62,506 nt of DNA, from positions 1 through 62,506 of the forward strand of contig DATAXU010000018.1 of assembly GCA_036272955.1 (NCBI GenBank). Direction: 5' to 3'. The notes under the pieces are model-generated. The model worked only from the letters and a program-made list of their open reading frames with translations, searched no databases and was not told the origin of the DNA. Source of the stretch: Verrucomicrobiia bacterium (lineage in GTDB: Bacteria; Verrucomicrobiota; Verrucomicrobiia; Limisphaerales; Palsa-1400). The translations under genes and the position numbers were made by a program. Below, in pieces: positions 6,864 to 10,311 of this stretch (positions are counted from its first letter, which is position 1; each line of letters opens with the position of its first letter).

Positions 6864-7268
6864 CTAAACTAAAACCGGATTAGGGACCAATTGCCCCGCG
6901 GCAGCCGCTAACTCCTGAGCGCGAATTTTCTGCCCCGGTTTATCAGAAGGCCATCCAATAATTCCCGCATGATTTACATTTTCAGGTACAGGCTGCGCTT
7001 CAACTCGGAGCATCGCCGCGTGGACAACTCCGACGGTTACGTCGGCTCGCCCGTATAATGAGGGCGGCGGTTTTCGAAAGCGGACAACGTCTTCGCCGAT
7101 CTTCCACAATTGAGACTCACTCAGGTCCCTGTGCCGCGTGACGGAAAGATCAGGGTAAGGATGGGGAATAAATGCGTCGGGCCGGACGGTCCTGTCGCTC
7201 CGAACCCATCGGCTGAAGGTTATAAAACGAGCCAGCTTCTCGGATTCAGGAAGCACACCTGCGTTCAT
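6864..7268 (-). CDS. Hypothetical 134-aa protein, third gene of the TIGR04255-like cassette
   Basis: Its ATG (complement of 7266-7268) lies 1 nt after the stop of the upstream gene (tgaAatg). No TM segment or signal peptide. There is a conserved-looking C-terminal motif NVNHAGIIGWPSDKPGQKIRAQELA. I recognise no named family. Confidence 0.65.
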   Translation of the reverse strand: MNAGVLPESEKLARFITFSRWVRSDRTVRPDAFIPHPYPDLSVTRHRDLSESQLWKIGEDVVRFRKPPPSLYGRADVTVGVVHAAMLRVEAQPVPENVNHAGIIGWPSDKPGQKIRAQELAAAAGQLVPNPVLV

Positions 7269-7269
7269 T

Positions 7270-7770
7270 TCACTTGGCCAAAACTTCCGAAACCAATTCC
7301 AAAACGACTCCTGGAACTTCGCCGAAAAATGGCTCGGTTCCGTACCGCTTCCGCAATCCTAGTGACGCAGCGTAGTGCAGCTCACCCTGTGGACCAATGC
7401 TTACCGATAGAAGGCGTCGCGAACTGCGAAACCATTCAAATGTCAGGTGGCCGTCAGGCTCCGCACTAATCGAAAACACCGGAATTCCAATTGGCAACGC
7501 CTCAATAAACTTATAAGCCAATAGGTAGGTTTCACTTGAAATCGCCGCCGCCCCTTGCCCATCCCAGTTCGGCTTTTTGCATTCTTCCGCCACCGAAGAA
7601 AGTTCCTCAAGACTGGCCCGGTGCGACGCACCAAAAGACTGGGACGCACACAAATGGCGGCAGCTATCCTGGAAGGCGGAGGCGATTTGGCCCGCTTCCG
7701 CACTCGTTGCGGGACTACGCGAAAACCGCCAGGAACAAAGAAACGCTGACGTTGTCATCTCCAATATCAT
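7270..7770 (-). CDS. Hypothetical 166-aa protein, middle gene of the TIGR04255-like cassette
   Basis: Its ATG overlaps the stop of the upstream gene in an ATGA (7767-7770). The C-terminal half NWDGQGAAAISSETYLLAYKFIEALP...SAEPDGHLTFEWF...LSVSIGPQGELHY looks like a compact alpha/beta domain. The N-terminal ~55 aa are low complexity. I recognise no named family. Confidence 0.6.
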   Translation of the reverse strand: MILEMTTSAFLCSWRFSRSPATSAEAGQIASAFQDSCRHLCASQSFGASHRASLEELSSVAEECKKPNWDGQGAAAISSETYLLAYKFIEALPIGIPVFSISAEPDGHLTFEWFRSSRRLLSVSIGPQGELHYAASLGLRKRYGTEPFFGEVPGVVLELVSEVLAK

Positions 7771-8543
7771 TTAAAACTTTGCTTAACTTTCTCCGTAATA
7801 GTACCAAAGAACGCCTTGTTTTTCAACCATCGCATTTCGGCGAGGCGATCCTCAACCCATTTAATATCCGAAGAATCCGCCGCTTGTAAAACAGAAACGT
7901 CGATATCCACGATCAATGCCGGACTGCTCGTGCCCAAAGGCTGAGGCGGTTGTAACGCGCGAACAACGTTCATCGTATAAGGCTGTCCCGGCACCCTGAA
8001 AGTGTCCATATGCAGAAAACCGCTAAATGGCAGATCCAAATTCACGGGAGTCTTGGGATGTGGTTCGATATAGTCCTCAAGTTGAACCGCGCCCGTGGGC
8101 AATTCAATACGGTTAATAAATCGGACTCCGAGTCTCTCGATTTCCGGCGGCCTTGCCACCTTCGCGTGAATCCTCCATAACCGCATTGCCTCAACTTGCA
8201 AACGGCTCCAGTCCTGATACGGTTGCAACCGGCTGAAAGTGAAGCCATCCCGGTCGAATGTCGCTACGTTACGCCCGTCCCCAGATTTAAATTGCAGCCC
8301 CTTCCATAAATCCTGTTGATTCGTTGTCGCCAGCGGACCCGGCATGATCGTAAAGCCAACCACTAATGAGTTTTGCACCGCCATTTGCGGATAATCCGCT
8401 AGCTGAGGCTTTAATACGTTCGCTATTGTCGTCTCATCCCATGGGACAGTGGCTCTTGCCCGCAAGGCGATGATGGCCTCCACGATTGGCGCGTGTGGCA
8501 AGTGCTCGAAGGTTTGAGTGGCGTCAATCTTGAATTCGCTCAT
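7767..8543 (-). CDS. TIGR04255-like conserved hypothetical protein (a family I recall as sporadically distributed)
   Basis: Part of ORF 7767..8630. The likely start is the internal ATG at 8543 (MSEFKIDATQTFEHLPHAPIVEAIIALR...). The N-terminal 'API.EA.. .. .' motif and the central 'ERLGVRFINRIELP' motif match my memory of TIGR04255. No search was run. Confidence 0.6.
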   Translation of the reverse strand: MSEFKIDATQTFEHLPHAPIVEAIIALRARATVPWDETTIANVLKPQLADYPQMAVQNSLVVGFTIMPGPLATTNQQDLWKGLQFKSGDGRNVATFDRDGFTFSRLQPYQDWSRLQVEAMRLWRIHAKVARPPEIERLGVRFINRIELPTGAVQLEDYIEPHPKTPVNLDLPFSGFLHMDTFRVPGQPYTMNVVRALQPPQPLGTSSPALIVDIDVSVLQAADSSDIKWVEDRLAEMRWLKNKAFFGTITEKVKQSFK

Positions 8544-8674
8544 CGCTGGAGACACCGAATACAACCTAAAGGATGGAAAATGCCAGAAAATTATATTCGG
8601 CCACATTTCAGGCCGTCGATCACACGCCATTTTTGCTTCGGACGATTCAATCTCAATGCGGAGGCGAATGAATT

Positions 8675-9291: not shown

Positions 9292-10311
9292 CTACGAAAG
9301 CCCTTTGACCCTCCACGCCGCGTCCAACAGGTTCTTGTCGTACGGGTCGGGCACGGTTCCTTCGGCGGCAAAAAGATAGAGGGCACATCGGAAAACATGC
9401 CCGGCCACACTAACAACGTAGGCCATGCACATCAACGAAAAAAGCCAGAGGACTCCACCGATGCCGAACGTCCACCAACTCTTGAAAATCCACGCAAACG
9501 CGCCCACCGCCAGCAACGGCACCAGCGAGACCATAAATATCACGGCGTTCGCCGCCGAAAACCCAATGTATCCAATCAGCCCCTCGCCCCACGTCCGCTT
9601 CAAGGTCGTCGCGGATTGCTGGAGGATCTTTACCGGGTTGTGCATGGATTGTTCCTGGATGATCACCGGAATCGCAAACACCGCCGCGACGCTCCACGCC
9701 ATTCCGACCAATCCCATCATAATTCGCCCCGCGAACGGCAAACGCTCCTCAATGCTGCGAATGATCCATCCGACCACTCCCGCCAATAGCGACCACGCGA
9801 GAATCGCGCGCAGCCGCCCCCGCGCAACGCCAAACCCGCGCCGAAGCGAAACACCCTTGCCGTTGAGCGCCGTGATGATCTCGCTGTAAAATGCCACGTT
9901 GAAAAAAGTCGCCAGGAACATCGACCCAAGATAAAGCGGAAGCACCCAAACCGAATTCCAGAACGAGGGATGCGGCGCCATCGAATTTCCAGGACCCGCC
10001 GTGCTCGTGGGATGGCCGGTTATTATCCTGCTCAGGGCATTGCGCAGGCTGGTTGGCGGTTGATACTTGGGTACAACAACAGGTTTCGGAAAATACAGGT
10101 TTTCCAATGCCTCCCAATGTTGCTTTTGGGTAATATGGTAACCGGTATCATGCAAAACCATCGGCAGAGCCATCGCCGAGATAAATACAAGCGCTATGAC
10201 AGACGTCAGCAGCGTGATTACAAGCGGAAAGCAGAGCAGTTTGGGGTGGCGAAAGACGATAGTTGCGGAAGCCCTGAAAAGCTGCCAGCTAACAGTAAAT
10301 TTCTTGTTCAT
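9292..10311 (-). CDS. Polytopic inner-membrane protein of unknown function, translationally coupled to gntR
   Basis: 339 aa with about 6-7 hydrophobic helices (for example LLCFPLVITLLTSVIALVFISAMALPMV and VIFMVSLVPLLAVGAFAWIF). 4-nt overlap with the gntR stop (10308-10311). Confidence 0.7.
   Translation of the reverse strand: MNKKFTVSWQLFRASATIVFRHPKLLCFPLVITLLTSVIALVFISAMALPMVLHDTGYHITQKQHWEALENLYFPKPVVVPKYQPPTSLRNALSRIITGHPTSTAGPGNSMAPHPSFWNSVWVLPLYLGSMFLATFFNVAFYSEIITALNGKGVSLRRGFGVARGRLRAILAWSLLAGVVGWIIRSIEERLPFAGRIMMGLVGMAWSVAAVFAIPVIIQEQSMHNPVKILQQSATTLKRTWGEGLIGYIGFSAANAVIFMVSLVPLLAVGAFAWIFKSWWTFGIGGVLWLFSLMCMAYVVSVAGHVFRCALYLFAAEGTVPDPYDKNLLDAAWRVKGLS

What the first reader, a model, noticed from the sequence alone, without database searches (positions are those of the whole stretch)
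6864..8543. Translationally coupled three-gene cassette built around a TIGR04255-like protein: best candidate here for an undescribed system
Seen in sequence:
- Three minus-strand genes are packed with almost no spacing. The 258-aa protein's stop overlaps the 166-aa protein's start in an ATGA at 7767-7770. The 166-aa stop is followed after 1 nt by the 134-aa start (tgaAatg, 7266-7272). This implies obligate co-expression and probably a stoichiometric complex.
- None of the three has a signal peptide, a TM segment or a catalytic motif I can name.
- The first protein matches my memory of TIGR04255 (API.EA N-terminus, central R.G.R(F/Y)INRI block). As far as I recall, that family is described only as sporadically distributed and has no known function.
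- The two small partners carry sharp, conserved-looking motifs: NWDGQGA...PDGHLTFEW in the 166-aa protein and NVNHAGIIGWPSDKPGQK..A.ELA in the 134-aa protein. I have seen such motifs only in unannotated small proteins.
- The block looks more AT-rich than its neighbours. It is bounded by a convergent housekeeping-type aldo/keto reductase on one side and a small P-loop kinase on the other.

Inference: sporadic distribution, tight coupling and unnamed small partners fit a conflict, defence or toxin-immunity type module, not a metabolic one.
Basis: partly seen in the sequence, partly recalled or inferred. Interest (0 to 1): 0.7.

Follow-up and report, generated by a model that had tools for sequence, protein, structure and literature searches.

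The report
Mobile three-gene toxin–antitoxin-like cassette
Three tightly coupled small genes form a horizontally mobile cassette found in over a hundred loci from at least a dozen bacterial phyla, often inside restriction-modification operons; it looks like an uncharacterised three-part toxin–antitoxin or phage-defence module made of protein families with no known function.

Summary
Three minus-strand genes lie at 6864-8543: A (258 aa), B (166 aa) and C (134 aa). A/B share an ATGA overlap and B/C are 1 nt apart.

- **Family hits.** A scores 120 bits on TIGR04255 (cut-off 30). B and C match nothing in Pfam, NCBIfam or PDB sequences.
- **Conservation.** The A-B-C order recurs in 61/80 genome loci and 54/60 informative metagenome loci from at least 12 phyla. 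The 4-nt overlaps are conserved, dN/dS is 0.05-0.44, and the three genes co-evolve.
- **Context.** Neighbours are otherwise unrelated. However, 19/80 loci have type I R-M genes within 6 kb, and at least 8 sit exactly between hsdS and hsdR. One lineage has the cassette inside the ribosomal-protein operon.
- **Core pair.** About 10% of loci lack A, so B-C is a self-sufficient core. B is acidic and C is basic.
- **Structure.** C has a confident model (pLDDT 93) with no PDB fold match. A is a TBP-like double β-α saddle with family-wide invariant Y/R/DxD residues.
- **Wider family.** Distant TIGR04255 genes on 12 plasmids also lead tight same-strand operons. One ends in a zeta toxin.

Best reading: a tripartite toxin–antitoxin or abortive-infection-type module, with C as toxin, B as antitoxin and A as accessory controller. 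Function is untested.

The parts
8590..8619 (-). Promoter-like site (TCGACG, 18 nt spacer, TATAAT) upstream of gene A. A small inverted repeat CGGCC-N8-GGCCG lies at 8598-8615.
   Evidence: 10/12 consensus matches; 4 sites found against 1.6 expected in shuffles. It lies in the 131-nt gap after the upstream kinase gene. This is a consensus match only, not proof of function.
7767..8543 (-). Gene A: TIGR04255-family protein, 258 aa. Predicted TBP-like double (β-α-β4-α) saddle. Family-wide conserved E22, Y109, R141, D213-x-D215.
   Evidence: TIGR04255, 120 bits. (pLDDT 92). (best PDB match TBP 1qn6_A, prob 0.89, TM 0.27/0.35). (invariant residues at 15-25% identity).
7767..7770 (-). ATGA stop/start overlap between A and B, implying translational coupling.
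   Evidence: The same 4-nt overlap occurs in 43 of 66 related loci.
7270..7770 (-). Gene B: 166 aa, acidic (pI 5.4-5.6). It has an N-terminal extension of about 45 aa and an 'NWDGxGA...EPDGxLTxEW' domain. Putative antitoxin or adaptor.
   Evidence: 366 cluster homologues, all unannotated. (18/21 members hit PADLOC candidate PDC-M32A, best E=1.7e-5). (family median pI 5.1). (the N-terminal extension is replaced or absent where A is absent).
7266..7272 (-). B stop / C start junction (tgaAatg, 1-nt spacer).
   Evidence: In relatives the usual form is a 4-nt overlap, seen in 58 of 72 loci.
6864..7268 (-). Gene C: 134 aa, basic (pI 9.6). Near-invariant R14, S42 and H100, plus E10, R23, R45, R74, D76 and K110. 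Confident model with no PDB fold match. Putative toxin or effector.
   Evidence: (2,660 clusters at 50% identity with E<=1e-3, all small stand-alone proteins). (conservation). (pLDDT 93). (best PDB E=0.4, TM<0.33).

Best explanation
This is a horizontally mobile, self-contained three-gene operon of the toxin-antitoxin / abortive-infection type.

Shown:
- The three genes are transcribed together and translationally coupled.
- They are inherited and transferred as one unit.
- All three are kept under purifying selection.
- They land in unrelated chromosomal sites, preferentially inside type I restriction-modification operons.

Inferred:
- C is a small basic protein with a new fold and an invariant R/S/H-centred polar cluster. 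It is the growth-inhibiting effector (toxin), probably an enzyme acting on a phosphate-containing substrate such as a nucleic acid or nucleotide.
- B is acidic and encoded just upstream. It binds and neutralises C through its NWDG/EPDG domain (antitoxin).
- A (TIGR04255) is a third, accessory component. It controls the antitoxin through the roughly 45-aa N-terminal extension that B carries in this form only when A is present.
- A presents a metal- or ligand-binding site (E22, Y109, R141, D213xD215) on a TBP-like β-saddle. That site is conserved across the whole TIGR04255 family whatever the partner genes.
- A therefore more likely acts as a sensor or enzyme that switches the B-C pair on or off than as a passive chaperone.
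- Release of C on phage attack, or on loss of the cassette, would arrest the cell.
For: Synteny and inheritance:
- A-B-C in the same order and strand in 61 of 80 genome loci (nearly all with enough upstream DNA) and in 54 of 60 informative metagenome loci.
- 4-nt overlaps in 43/66 A/B junctions and 58/72 B/C junctions.
- dN/dS of 0.05-0.44 for all three genes in 27 pairs. Mantel r of 0.74-0.82 between the genes' distance matrices, with 0 of 999 permutations reaching the observed value.

Mobility and context:
- At least 12 phyla.
- Neighbours are unrelated, except that HsdS/HsdM are the top upstream families and HsdR the top downstream family.
- Type I R-M genes lie within 6 kb in 19/80 loci, and the arrangement is hsdS-[ABC]-hsdR in at least 8. 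It is also seen next to Fic, RhuM and DUF1016 in L081-83.
- One lineage has the cassette inserted between rpsQ and rplN. Another sits beside a TIR protein and a BrnT toxin.

TA-like anatomy:
- B median pI is 5.1 and C median pI is 8.3, 9.6 in the window.
- The order is small acidic gene, then small basic gene.
- B-C occurs without A in about 10% of loci. There B is either shortened to the NWDG domain or carries a different N-terminus.
- Orphan short-B copies occur in L033.
- C is interrupted by an IS in L037 and frameshifted in L042, and A is frameshifted in L047 and L049. B is never broken.

TIGR04255 as a recurrent first gene of tight operons:
- 12 of 12 plasmid examples have a same-strand gene 2, usually with a gene 3.
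- Gene 2 is an Xre-type HTH protein in several.
- Gene 3 is a Zeta_toxin/AAA_33 kinase in Vibrio CP063527.
- Divergent A-B-C copies occur in a Ralstonia P2-like phage record and as a second cassette in L019.

Other:
- B is remotely related to the PADLOC defence candidate PDC-M32A.
- Invariant polar residues in A persist at 15-25% identity.
Against: - No toxicity, binding or defence has been tested.
- Neither B nor C shows detectable homology to any known antitoxin or toxin in Pfam, NCBIfam, PADLOC (except the partial PDC-M32A match), PHROGs or PDB.
- The C model matches no solved toxin fold.
- The RHH-like look of alternative B N-termini could not be confirmed. The best result is MazE6 at E=0.15; Pfam, NCBIfam and hhalign were negative.
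- The cassette is absent from sequenced plasmids, and from IMG/VR in the one pattern scan run. That is unusual for addiction modules.
- In this window, and in about three quarters of loci, no defence genes are nearby.
- The role assigned to A rests on correlation with B's N-terminal extension and on a weak fold match.
Confidence: 0.48

Rival explanations
1. A (TIGR04255) is the catalytic effector or signal-generating enzyme of the system. B and C are its regulator and adaptor or sensor, rather than an antitoxin-toxin pair.
For: A is the constant element across many operon types, while genes 2 and 3 vary. It keeps an invariant Y/R/DxD (+E) set at 15-25% identity, which suggests catalysis. Weak fold matches include triphosphate-tunnel enzymes and guanido-kinase catalytic domains.
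Against: B-C exists and is conserved without A in about 10% of loci, so A is dispensable for the core. In a distant operon the third gene is a bona fide toxin family (zeta). All fold matches are weak (TM 0.35 or lower), and the best is the non-enzymatic TBP.
Confidence: 0.15
2. The cassette is an accessory of type I restriction-modification systems. It would be a guard or back-up that works physically with Hsd proteins, like the PrrC anticodon nuclease embedded in EcoprrI, or it would modulate restriction.
For: 19/80 loci have Hsd genes within 6 kb, and at least 8 have the cassette exactly between hsdS and hsdR. That PrrC lies in this position in EcoprrI is established knowledge, not tested here.
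Against: About 76% of loci have no R-M genes in the flanks. These include this window, the ribosomal-operon insertion and the dcw/queA site. The hsdS-hsdR gap is a general landing site for many unrelated TA/Abi genes; Fic, RhuM and DUF1016 are in the same gap. There is no similarity to PrrC/RloC.
Confidence: 0.1
3. The cassette has a non-conflict cellular function, for example a stress, translation or small-molecule-handling module. It would be spread by HGT but would be neither toxic nor defensive.
For: In the window it sits among ordinary genes. One lineage carries it inside the S10/spc ribosomal operon. A resembles ligand-binding TBP-like/START-type folds. The cassette is not found on plasmids or in phage databases.
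Against: The distribution is sporadic and crosses phyla, with no conserved neighbourhood. It is enriched in R-M operons and near TIR, BrnT, PIN and Fic genes. It shows TA-like charge asymmetry and gene order. Interrupted C genes (IS insertion, frameshift) occur in two loci. Related TIGR04255 operons carry a zeta toxin and Xre-type genes.
Confidence: 0.1
4. B and C are an immunity protein and a secreted polymorphic toxin used in inter-bacterial competition.
For: Extra orphan B-like copies lie downstream in L033, resembling immunity-gene arrays. The Ralstonia copy lies next to PAAR/DUF4123-like ORFs, identified by eye only.
Against: There is no signal peptide, TM segment or secretion-associated N-terminal domain. 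C is a 130-aa stand-alone protein in all of the 150 best representatives. The order is immunity-like gene before toxin. No secretion-system genes recur in the flanks.
Confidence: 0.03

Closest known systems
Tripartite toxin-antitoxin-chaperone (TAC) systems, e.g. M. tuberculosis HigB1-HigA1-SecB-like chaperone (Bordes et al. 2011, cited in PMC10440598)
   Same: A two-gene TA core plus a dedicated third protein. The presence of the third protein goes with an extra segment on the antitoxin; here that is the ~45-aa N-terminal extension of B that accompanies A. Two-gene versions without that segment also exist.
   Different: A is not SecB-like. It is TIGR04255, a TBP-like double saddle with a conserved polar or metal-type site. 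It is encoded first, not last, and the extension is N-terminal, not C-terminal. The toxin and antitoxin families are unrelated to HigBA. The analogy is inferred, not tested.
omega-epsilon-zeta three-gene TA operons
   Same: A three-gene operon with an accessory first gene, then the antitoxin, then the toxin. A distant TIGR04255 operon on Vibrio plasmid CP063527 actually ends in a Zeta_toxin/AAA_33 gene.
   Different: The window's C is not a zeta kinase (no Pfam hit). A is not an RHH repressor like omega. Its conserved acidic DxD/E residues argue against a purely DNA-binding role.
Abortive-infection or TA genes embedded in type I R-M operons (PrrC in EcoprrI; RloA/RloB families, Miller et al. 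2005 as cited in PMC10440598)
   Same: The same genomic niche. The cassette lies between hsdS and hsdR in at least 8 loci and near Hsd genes in 19/80.
   Different: No sequence or domain similarity. The window copy and most other copies are not next to R-M genes.
PADLOC phage-defence candidate PDC-M32 (component A)
   Same: 18 of 21 B-family members match the PDC-M32A profile over the NWDG...EPDG domain, profile positions 269-333 of 375, with best E=1.7e-5.
   Different: Only a 65-residue domain is shared. The window protein itself scores E=0.015. No counterpart of PDC-M32B was found, and A and C have no PADLOC hit. PDC-M32 is itself only a candidate with no known mechanism.
TIGR04255 family (NCBIfam 'sporadically distributed' protein of unknown function)
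   Same: A is a full-length, high-scoring member.
   Different: Nothing functional is recorded for the family. No paper in the searchable library mentions it. The operon context described here is new information about the family.

Membership tests
TIGR04255 (NCBIfam) | Whole-protein score above the curated cut-off (30 bits) over the full profile | tested here: met
   120.4 bits, E=1.1e-34, profile positions 2-252 of 252, protein residues 15-258.
Type II toxin-antitoxin system | Two adjacent, co-oriented, tightly coupled small genes (antitoxin first), sporadic and horizontally mobile | tested here: met
   (B then C, 4-nt overlap in 58/72 loci). (at least 12 phyla). (B-C alone in about 10% of loci).
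Type II toxin-antitoxin system | Homology of either partner to a recognised toxin or antitoxin family | tested here: not met
   no Pfam, NCBIfam, PHROG or PDB match for B or C. There is only a partial PADLOC PDC-M32A match for B.
Type II toxin-antitoxin system | Antitoxin carries a DNA-binding domain and autoregulates the operon | tested here: inconclusive
   The window B has no recognisable DNA-binding domain. Alternative N-termini in A-less relatives look RHH-like by eye, but the only signal is MazE6 at E=0.15. Pfam, NCBIfam, PDB-profile and hhalign tests were negative.
Type II toxin-antitoxin system | Toxin arrests growth, and antitoxin binds and neutralises it | not testable with these tools
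   Only indirect evidence: acidic B and basic C; C but never B found disrupted; orphan B copies.
Toxin-antitoxin-chaperone (TAC) | Third component is a SecB-like chaperone | tested here: not met
   A has no SecB Pfam hit. Its model is a TBP-like two-repeat saddle, and there is no SecB among the PDB matches.
Toxin-antitoxin-chaperone (TAC) | Antitoxin bears an extra segment that co-occurs with the third component | tested here: met
   All A-containing loci have a B with an N-terminal extension of about 45 aa or more. A-less loci have a short B (119-127 aa) or an unrelated N-terminus.
omega-epsilon-zeta | Toxin is a zeta-family kinase | tested here: not met
   C has no Zeta_toxin/AAA hit. Only the distant Vibrio TIGR04255 operon has one.
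PADLOC PDC-M32 | Both components (M32A and M32B) present at full length | tested here: not met
   only a 65-residue part of M32A matches B, and there is no M32B match.
Type I R-M-embedded abortive-infection module | Located within an hsdM/S-hsdR operon | tested here: not met
   Not in this window, where the neighbours are AKR, a P-loop kinase, DUF6159 and GntR. It is met in 8-19 of 80 related loci.

The most novel reading that the evidence does not exclude
TIGR04255 proteins are a widespread, previously unrecognised class of 'third components'. They would be ligand- or metal-binding sensors or enzymes on a TBP-like scaffold that plug into many unrelated two-gene toxin-antitoxin or effector pairs and gate them through an extension on the middle protein. 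Known partner pairs are the NWDG/C pair here, an Xre-HTH + ~278-aa pair on Acinetobacter, Klebsiella, Vibrio, Pseudomonas and other plasmids, and a zeta-toxin pair. C would be a toxin with a new fold and a new R/S/H active site.
Probability: 0.3. Interest if true: 0.75.

Novelty: new variant of a known kind. Interest (0 to 1): 0.6.

Why it matters
If the model holds, three results follow.
1. It gives a first functional context to TIGR04255. This large 'sporadically distributed' family has no literature, yet it also sits on clinical Acinetobacter, Klebsiella, Vibrio and Pseudomonas plasmids.
2. It adds two sizeable orphan families. C has about 2,660 clusters at 50% identity, and B has hundreds. 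They would be a new toxin fold and a new antitoxin domain.
3. It adds a new kind of three-component control to the TA and phage-defence repertoire, conceptually parallel to SecB-type TAC systems but with a different and possibly catalytic third partner.

The cassette is small (1.7 kb) and self-contained, so all of this is directly testable by cloning.

Tried and rejected
- **Library scans.** Pfam, NCBIfam, PADLOC and PHROGs scans of the three proteins gave only TIGR04255 for A and a weak PDC-M32A match for B. Family-wide Pfam scans of B and C gave nothing consistent.
- **PDB sequence searches.** Single-sequence and profile searches for A, B and C found nothing.
- **Fold searches.** C against PDB gave no match. 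C against BFVD gave one unnamed phage protein (E=5e-4). A against PDB gave only weak TBP/START/TTM-like hits.
- **Suspected A-B fusion (P0243, 407 aa).** This is an internal duplication of A, probably an assembly artefact, not a fusion.
- **Apparent loss of C in L093 and L097.** This is a gene-calling omission; tblastn finds C intact.
- **RHH or 'addiction-module' identity of alternative B N-termini.** Not confirmed.
- **Upstream P-loop kinase as a fourth member.** Rejected. It recurs only in near-identical contigs of the same organism and is not among the recurrent upstream families in other loci.
- **Flanking repeats or att-like sites around the cassette.** None found.
- **C and B in plasmid, phage and IMG/VR collections.** None found.
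- **Literature.** There are no papers on TIGR04255, and only one incidental mention of PDC-M32.
Full report
**1. What is in the sequence**

Three minus-strand ORFs occupy 6864-8543.
- A: 7767-8543, 258 aa.
- B: 7270-7770, 166 aa.
- C: 6864-7268, 134 aa.

A's stop overlaps B's start in ATGA (7767-7770). B's stop is followed after one base by C's ATG. A 287-aa version of A starting at 8630 is possible. However, a sigma-70-like promoter (TCGACG-18-TATAAT, 8619-8590, 10/12 matches) lies inside that extension, in the 131-nt gap after the upstream gene. This favours the 8543 start and an own promoter.

The flanks are a convergent aldo/keto reductase and, upstream on the same strand, an AAA_17/AAA_33 P-loop kinase. 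Beyond that come a DUF6159 membrane protein and a GntR regulator. None of the three proteins has a TM-like hydrophobic stretch.

Cassette GC is 0.527 against 0.560 for the window, the 5th percentile of same-size windows. The 'AT-rich' remark is therefore only weakly true.

**2. Family assignments**

A is a full-length TIGR04255 member at 120 bits against a cut-off of 30. B and C hit nothing in Pfam, NCBIfam or PHROGs, nothing in PDB sequences even with profiles, and nothing consistent when every family member is scanned.

The one exception is PADLOC. 18 of 21 B-family members match the defence candidate PDC-M32A over the NWDG...EPDG domain, with a best E of 1.7e-5; the window protein scores 0.015. 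The library holds no paper mentioning TIGR04255 and only an incidental mention of PDC-M32.

All three have hundreds of unannotated homologues. A full HMMER scan finds about 2,660 clusters at 50% identity for C. The best 150 are all small stand-alone proteins.

**3. Is the three-gene unit real?**

I baited 80 genome loci with C. They come from beta-, gamma-, delta- and zetaproteobacteria, Verrucomicrobiota, Planctomycetota, Acidobacteriota, Nitrospirota, Binatia, Ignavibacteria, Bacteroidetes, Zixibacteria, Sumerlaeota and others. I then searched them with profiles of A, B and C.

- A-B-C occurs in the same order and strand in 61 loci, which is nearly every locus with enough upstream DNA.
- A second, independent metagenome scan baited with the most divergent C proteins gave 54 A-B-C loci and 6 B-C-only loci among 60 informative ones.
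- The 4-nt overlap is the commonest junction: A/B in 43 of 66 loci and B/C in 58 of 72.
- dN/dS in 27 moderately diverged pairs is 0.06-0.24 for A, 0.05-0.25 for B and 0.06-0.44 for C.
- The three genes' pairwise-identity matrices are strongly correlated (Mantel r 0.74-0.82, with 0 of 999 permutations reaching that value).

The cassette is therefore coding, constrained, and moves as one unit. Close cassettes occur in different phyla, for example L011 (Deltaproteobacteria) and L013 (Brocadiaceae), which indicates horizontal transfer.

**4. Where it lands**

The two ORFs on each side of the cassette in all loci were scanned against Pfam. Most families appear once or twice and are ordinary housekeeping genes. 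The top upstream families, however, are HsdS (10) and HsdM (8), and the top downstream families are HsdR domains (6-7).

- A direct tblastn count gives type I R-M genes within 6 kb in 19 of 80 loci. The exact arrangement hsdS-[A-B-C]-hsdR occurs in at least 8.
- In L081-83 the same gap also holds DUF1016, Fic, RhuM and a 23S-IVP protein. That is the classic mixture of TA and Abi passengers of type I R-M operons.
- Other sites are next to a TIR-domain protein and a BrnT toxin (L022), and between mraZ and queA near a PIN toxin (L097).
- Remarkably, one site is between rpsQ and rplN inside the ribosomal-protein operon (L084-86).
- The window copy recurs with 99.6-100% nucleotide identity in four other contigs of the same organism, with the same neighbours.
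- No flanking repeats were found.
- C and B are absent from the plasmid and phage databases, and from IMG/VR in the one pattern scan run.

**5. Anatomy that points to a toxin-antitoxin core**

- In about 10% of loci A is missing, so B-C stands alone.
- In those loci B is either cut down to the NWDG domain (119-127 aa; L022, L023, L080) or carries a different N-terminus (L074, L077, L079, L098-101). In every A-containing locus, B has an N-terminal extension of about 45 aa or more.
- B is acidic (median pI 5.1; 97% of members below 6.5). C is basic (median 8.3; 9.6 in the window).
- Orphan short-B copies follow the cassette in L033.
- C is interrupted by a transposase in L037 and frameshifted in L042. 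A is frameshifted in L047 and L049. B is intact everywhere.

These are the habits of an antitoxin (B) and a toxin (C), but none is proof.

I read the alternative N-termini as RHH-like and 'addiction-module-component'-like by eye. The tests did not confirm this. The best result is antitoxin MazE6 at E=0.15, and Pfam, NCBIfam, a PDB profile search and hhalign were all negative.

**6. Structures**

C gives a confident model (pLDDT 93, pTM 0.85) with the order β-β-α-β-α-β-β-α. Foldseek finds no PDB match (best E 0.4, TM below 0.33) and one unnamed phage protein in BFVD (E 5e-4).

Across 149 diverse representatives (34-53% identity to the window protein), R14, S42 and H100 are 99-100% conserved. 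E10, R23, R45, R74, D76 and K110 are about 90% conserved. This suggests an active site, but its chemistry is unknown.

A gives pLDDT 92. Its topology is two repeats of β-α-β4-α. The best PDB match is TATA-box-binding protein (prob 0.89, but TM only 0.27/0.35), followed by START/PYL, triphosphate-tunnel and guanido-kinase hits at low probability.

In an alignment with TIGR04255 proteins of 15-25% identity, Y109, R141, D213, D215, F245 and T250 are invariant, and E22 nearly so. A site conserved irrespective of partner genes argues for ligand, metal or catalytic function rather than a partner-specific chaperone. The acidic residues argue against a purely DNA-binding role.

**7. TIGR04255 elsewhere**

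Twelve distant TIGR04255 genes on plasmids were inspected.
- All are followed on the same strand by a closely spaced gene 2, overlapping in 6 of 12, and usually by a gene 3.
- A second conserved type is TIGR04255 + Xre-type HTH protein + a ~278-aa protein. It occurs on plasmids of Acinetobacter baumannii, Klebsiella pneumoniae, Vibrio furnissii, Pseudomonas luteola, Gloeocapsopsis and Meiothermus, and probably Rhizobium etli, whose gene 3 has the same length but gave no BLAST match. Genes 2 and 3 are homologous within the type but unrelated to B and C.
- On Vibrio parahaemolyticus plasmid CP063527 the third gene is a Zeta_toxin/AAA_33 kinase (E 3e-12).
- Divergent A-B-C cassettes, with the WDGxG motif in gene 2 and the 'P..NP.HA.I' motif in gene 3, occur in a Ralstonia P2-like phage record. 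That record may include host flank.
- A partial second cassette occurs in L019. Its gene 2 has the WDGY motif. Its gene 3 runs off the locus and was not detectably related to C.

TIGR04255 thus looks like a recurrent first component in front of variable two-gene modules. At least one of those modules contains a known toxin.

**8. Synthesis**

Shown:
- The operon is conserved, co-evolving, translationally coupled and horizontally mobile.
- It has a preference for type I R-M operons.
- B-C is an autonomous core, and A is an add-on correlated with B's N-terminal extension.

Inferred:
- C is the toxin, B the antitoxin, and A a sensor or enzyme that controls B.

The nearest concept is the toxin-antitoxin-chaperone system, but A is not SecB-like. 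The ω-ε-ζ analogy fits the gene order, but C is not a zeta kinase. I therefore file the cassette as a new variant of a known kind (a multi-component TA or abortive-infection module), not as a member of any named family other than TIGR04255 for A.

Confidence that it is a real mobile three-gene unit is above 0.9. Confidence that it is a conflict or TA-type system is about 0.6-0.65. Confidence in the specific role assignment is about 0.5 or less.

Rivals, listed with their tests in the rival-explanations section:
- A is the effector.
- The cassette is an obligate R-M accessory.
- It has a non-conflict function.
- It is a secreted toxin-immunity pair.

Noticed in passing
L084:8710-10423 (also L085, L086): The A-B-C cassette is inserted in the sense orientation inside the ribosomal-protein operon, between rpsQ (S17) and rplN (L14). 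It is seen in three independent assemblies. This is an unusual landing site for a putative toxin module.
   Followed up: partly
L019:10632-12345: A second, divergent cassette lies 4 kb downstream of the first. It consists of a TIGR04255 paralogue (E 5e-31), a 181-aa protein with an 'NGWDGY' motif overlapping it by one base, and then a third ORF that runs off the locus.
   Followed up: partly
L092, L173-L178 (plasmids of Acinetobacter, Vibrio, Klebsiella, Pseudomonas, Rhizobium, Gloeocapsopsis, Meiothermus): A different conserved three-gene type was found: TIGR04255 + Xre-like HTH protein (156-231 aa) + an unannotated ~278-aa protein. Genes 2 and 3 are homologous across these plasmids; the R. 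etli gene 3 has the same length but gave no BLAST match. None has a Pfam or NCBIfam name beyond the HTH.
   Followed up: partly
L088:158-2105 (Vibrio parahaemolyticus plasmid CP063527): The operon is TIGR04255, then a 179-aa unknown protein, then a Zeta_toxin/AAA_33 kinase with a 4-nt overlap between genes 2 and 3. A known toxin family therefore occupies the position that C has in the window.
   Followed up: yes
L071 versus L010, L026, L028: A and B are close (dN 0.10-0.18), but C is far more diverged (dN about 0.40-0.42). This suggests that the C gene was exchanged between cassette lineages.
   Followed up: no
L037:4335-5998; L042:2009-2401; L047 and L049 (gene A): Damaged copies were seen. 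C is split by a 1.6-kb insertion encoding a DDE transposase in L037 and frameshifted in L042. A is frameshifted in L047 and L049. B is intact in all loci.
   Followed up: partly
L033:4112-4507, 7878-8027, 9353-9625: Extra short B-like genes or fragments without an adjacent C lie downstream of a complete cassette, within a type I R-M island that also holds DUF1016 and Fic genes.
   Followed up: partly
L093:4276-4677; L097:8500-8871: Public gene calls miss gene C in these contigs, although tblastn shows it intact. C-family genes are probably under-annotated in databases.
   Followed up: yes
L179:194-2061 (Ralstonia phage YO139_2 record ON170239, UNVERIFIED_ORG): A divergent A-B-C cassette lies at the end of a P2-like phage record. 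It is followed by ORFs that look like PAAR/DUF4123 (by eye), so the record may include host DNA. Whether the cassette is phage-borne is unclear.
   Followed up: partly
window:8675-9214 (-): A small AAA_17/AAA_18/AAA_33 P-loop kinase lies 131 nt upstream of gene A on the same strand. It recurs with the cassette only in near-identical contigs of the same organism, so it is probably not part of the system. Its weak AAA_33 similarity echoes the zeta-type third gene of the Vibrio operon.
   Followed up: partly
window:3246-5705 (+): An 819-aa protein is made of many ~23-residue leucine-rich 'BspA-like' repeats (…VTIPNSVTSIGDxAF…). It has an N-terminal signal-like segment and lies two genes from the cassette.
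   Followed up: no
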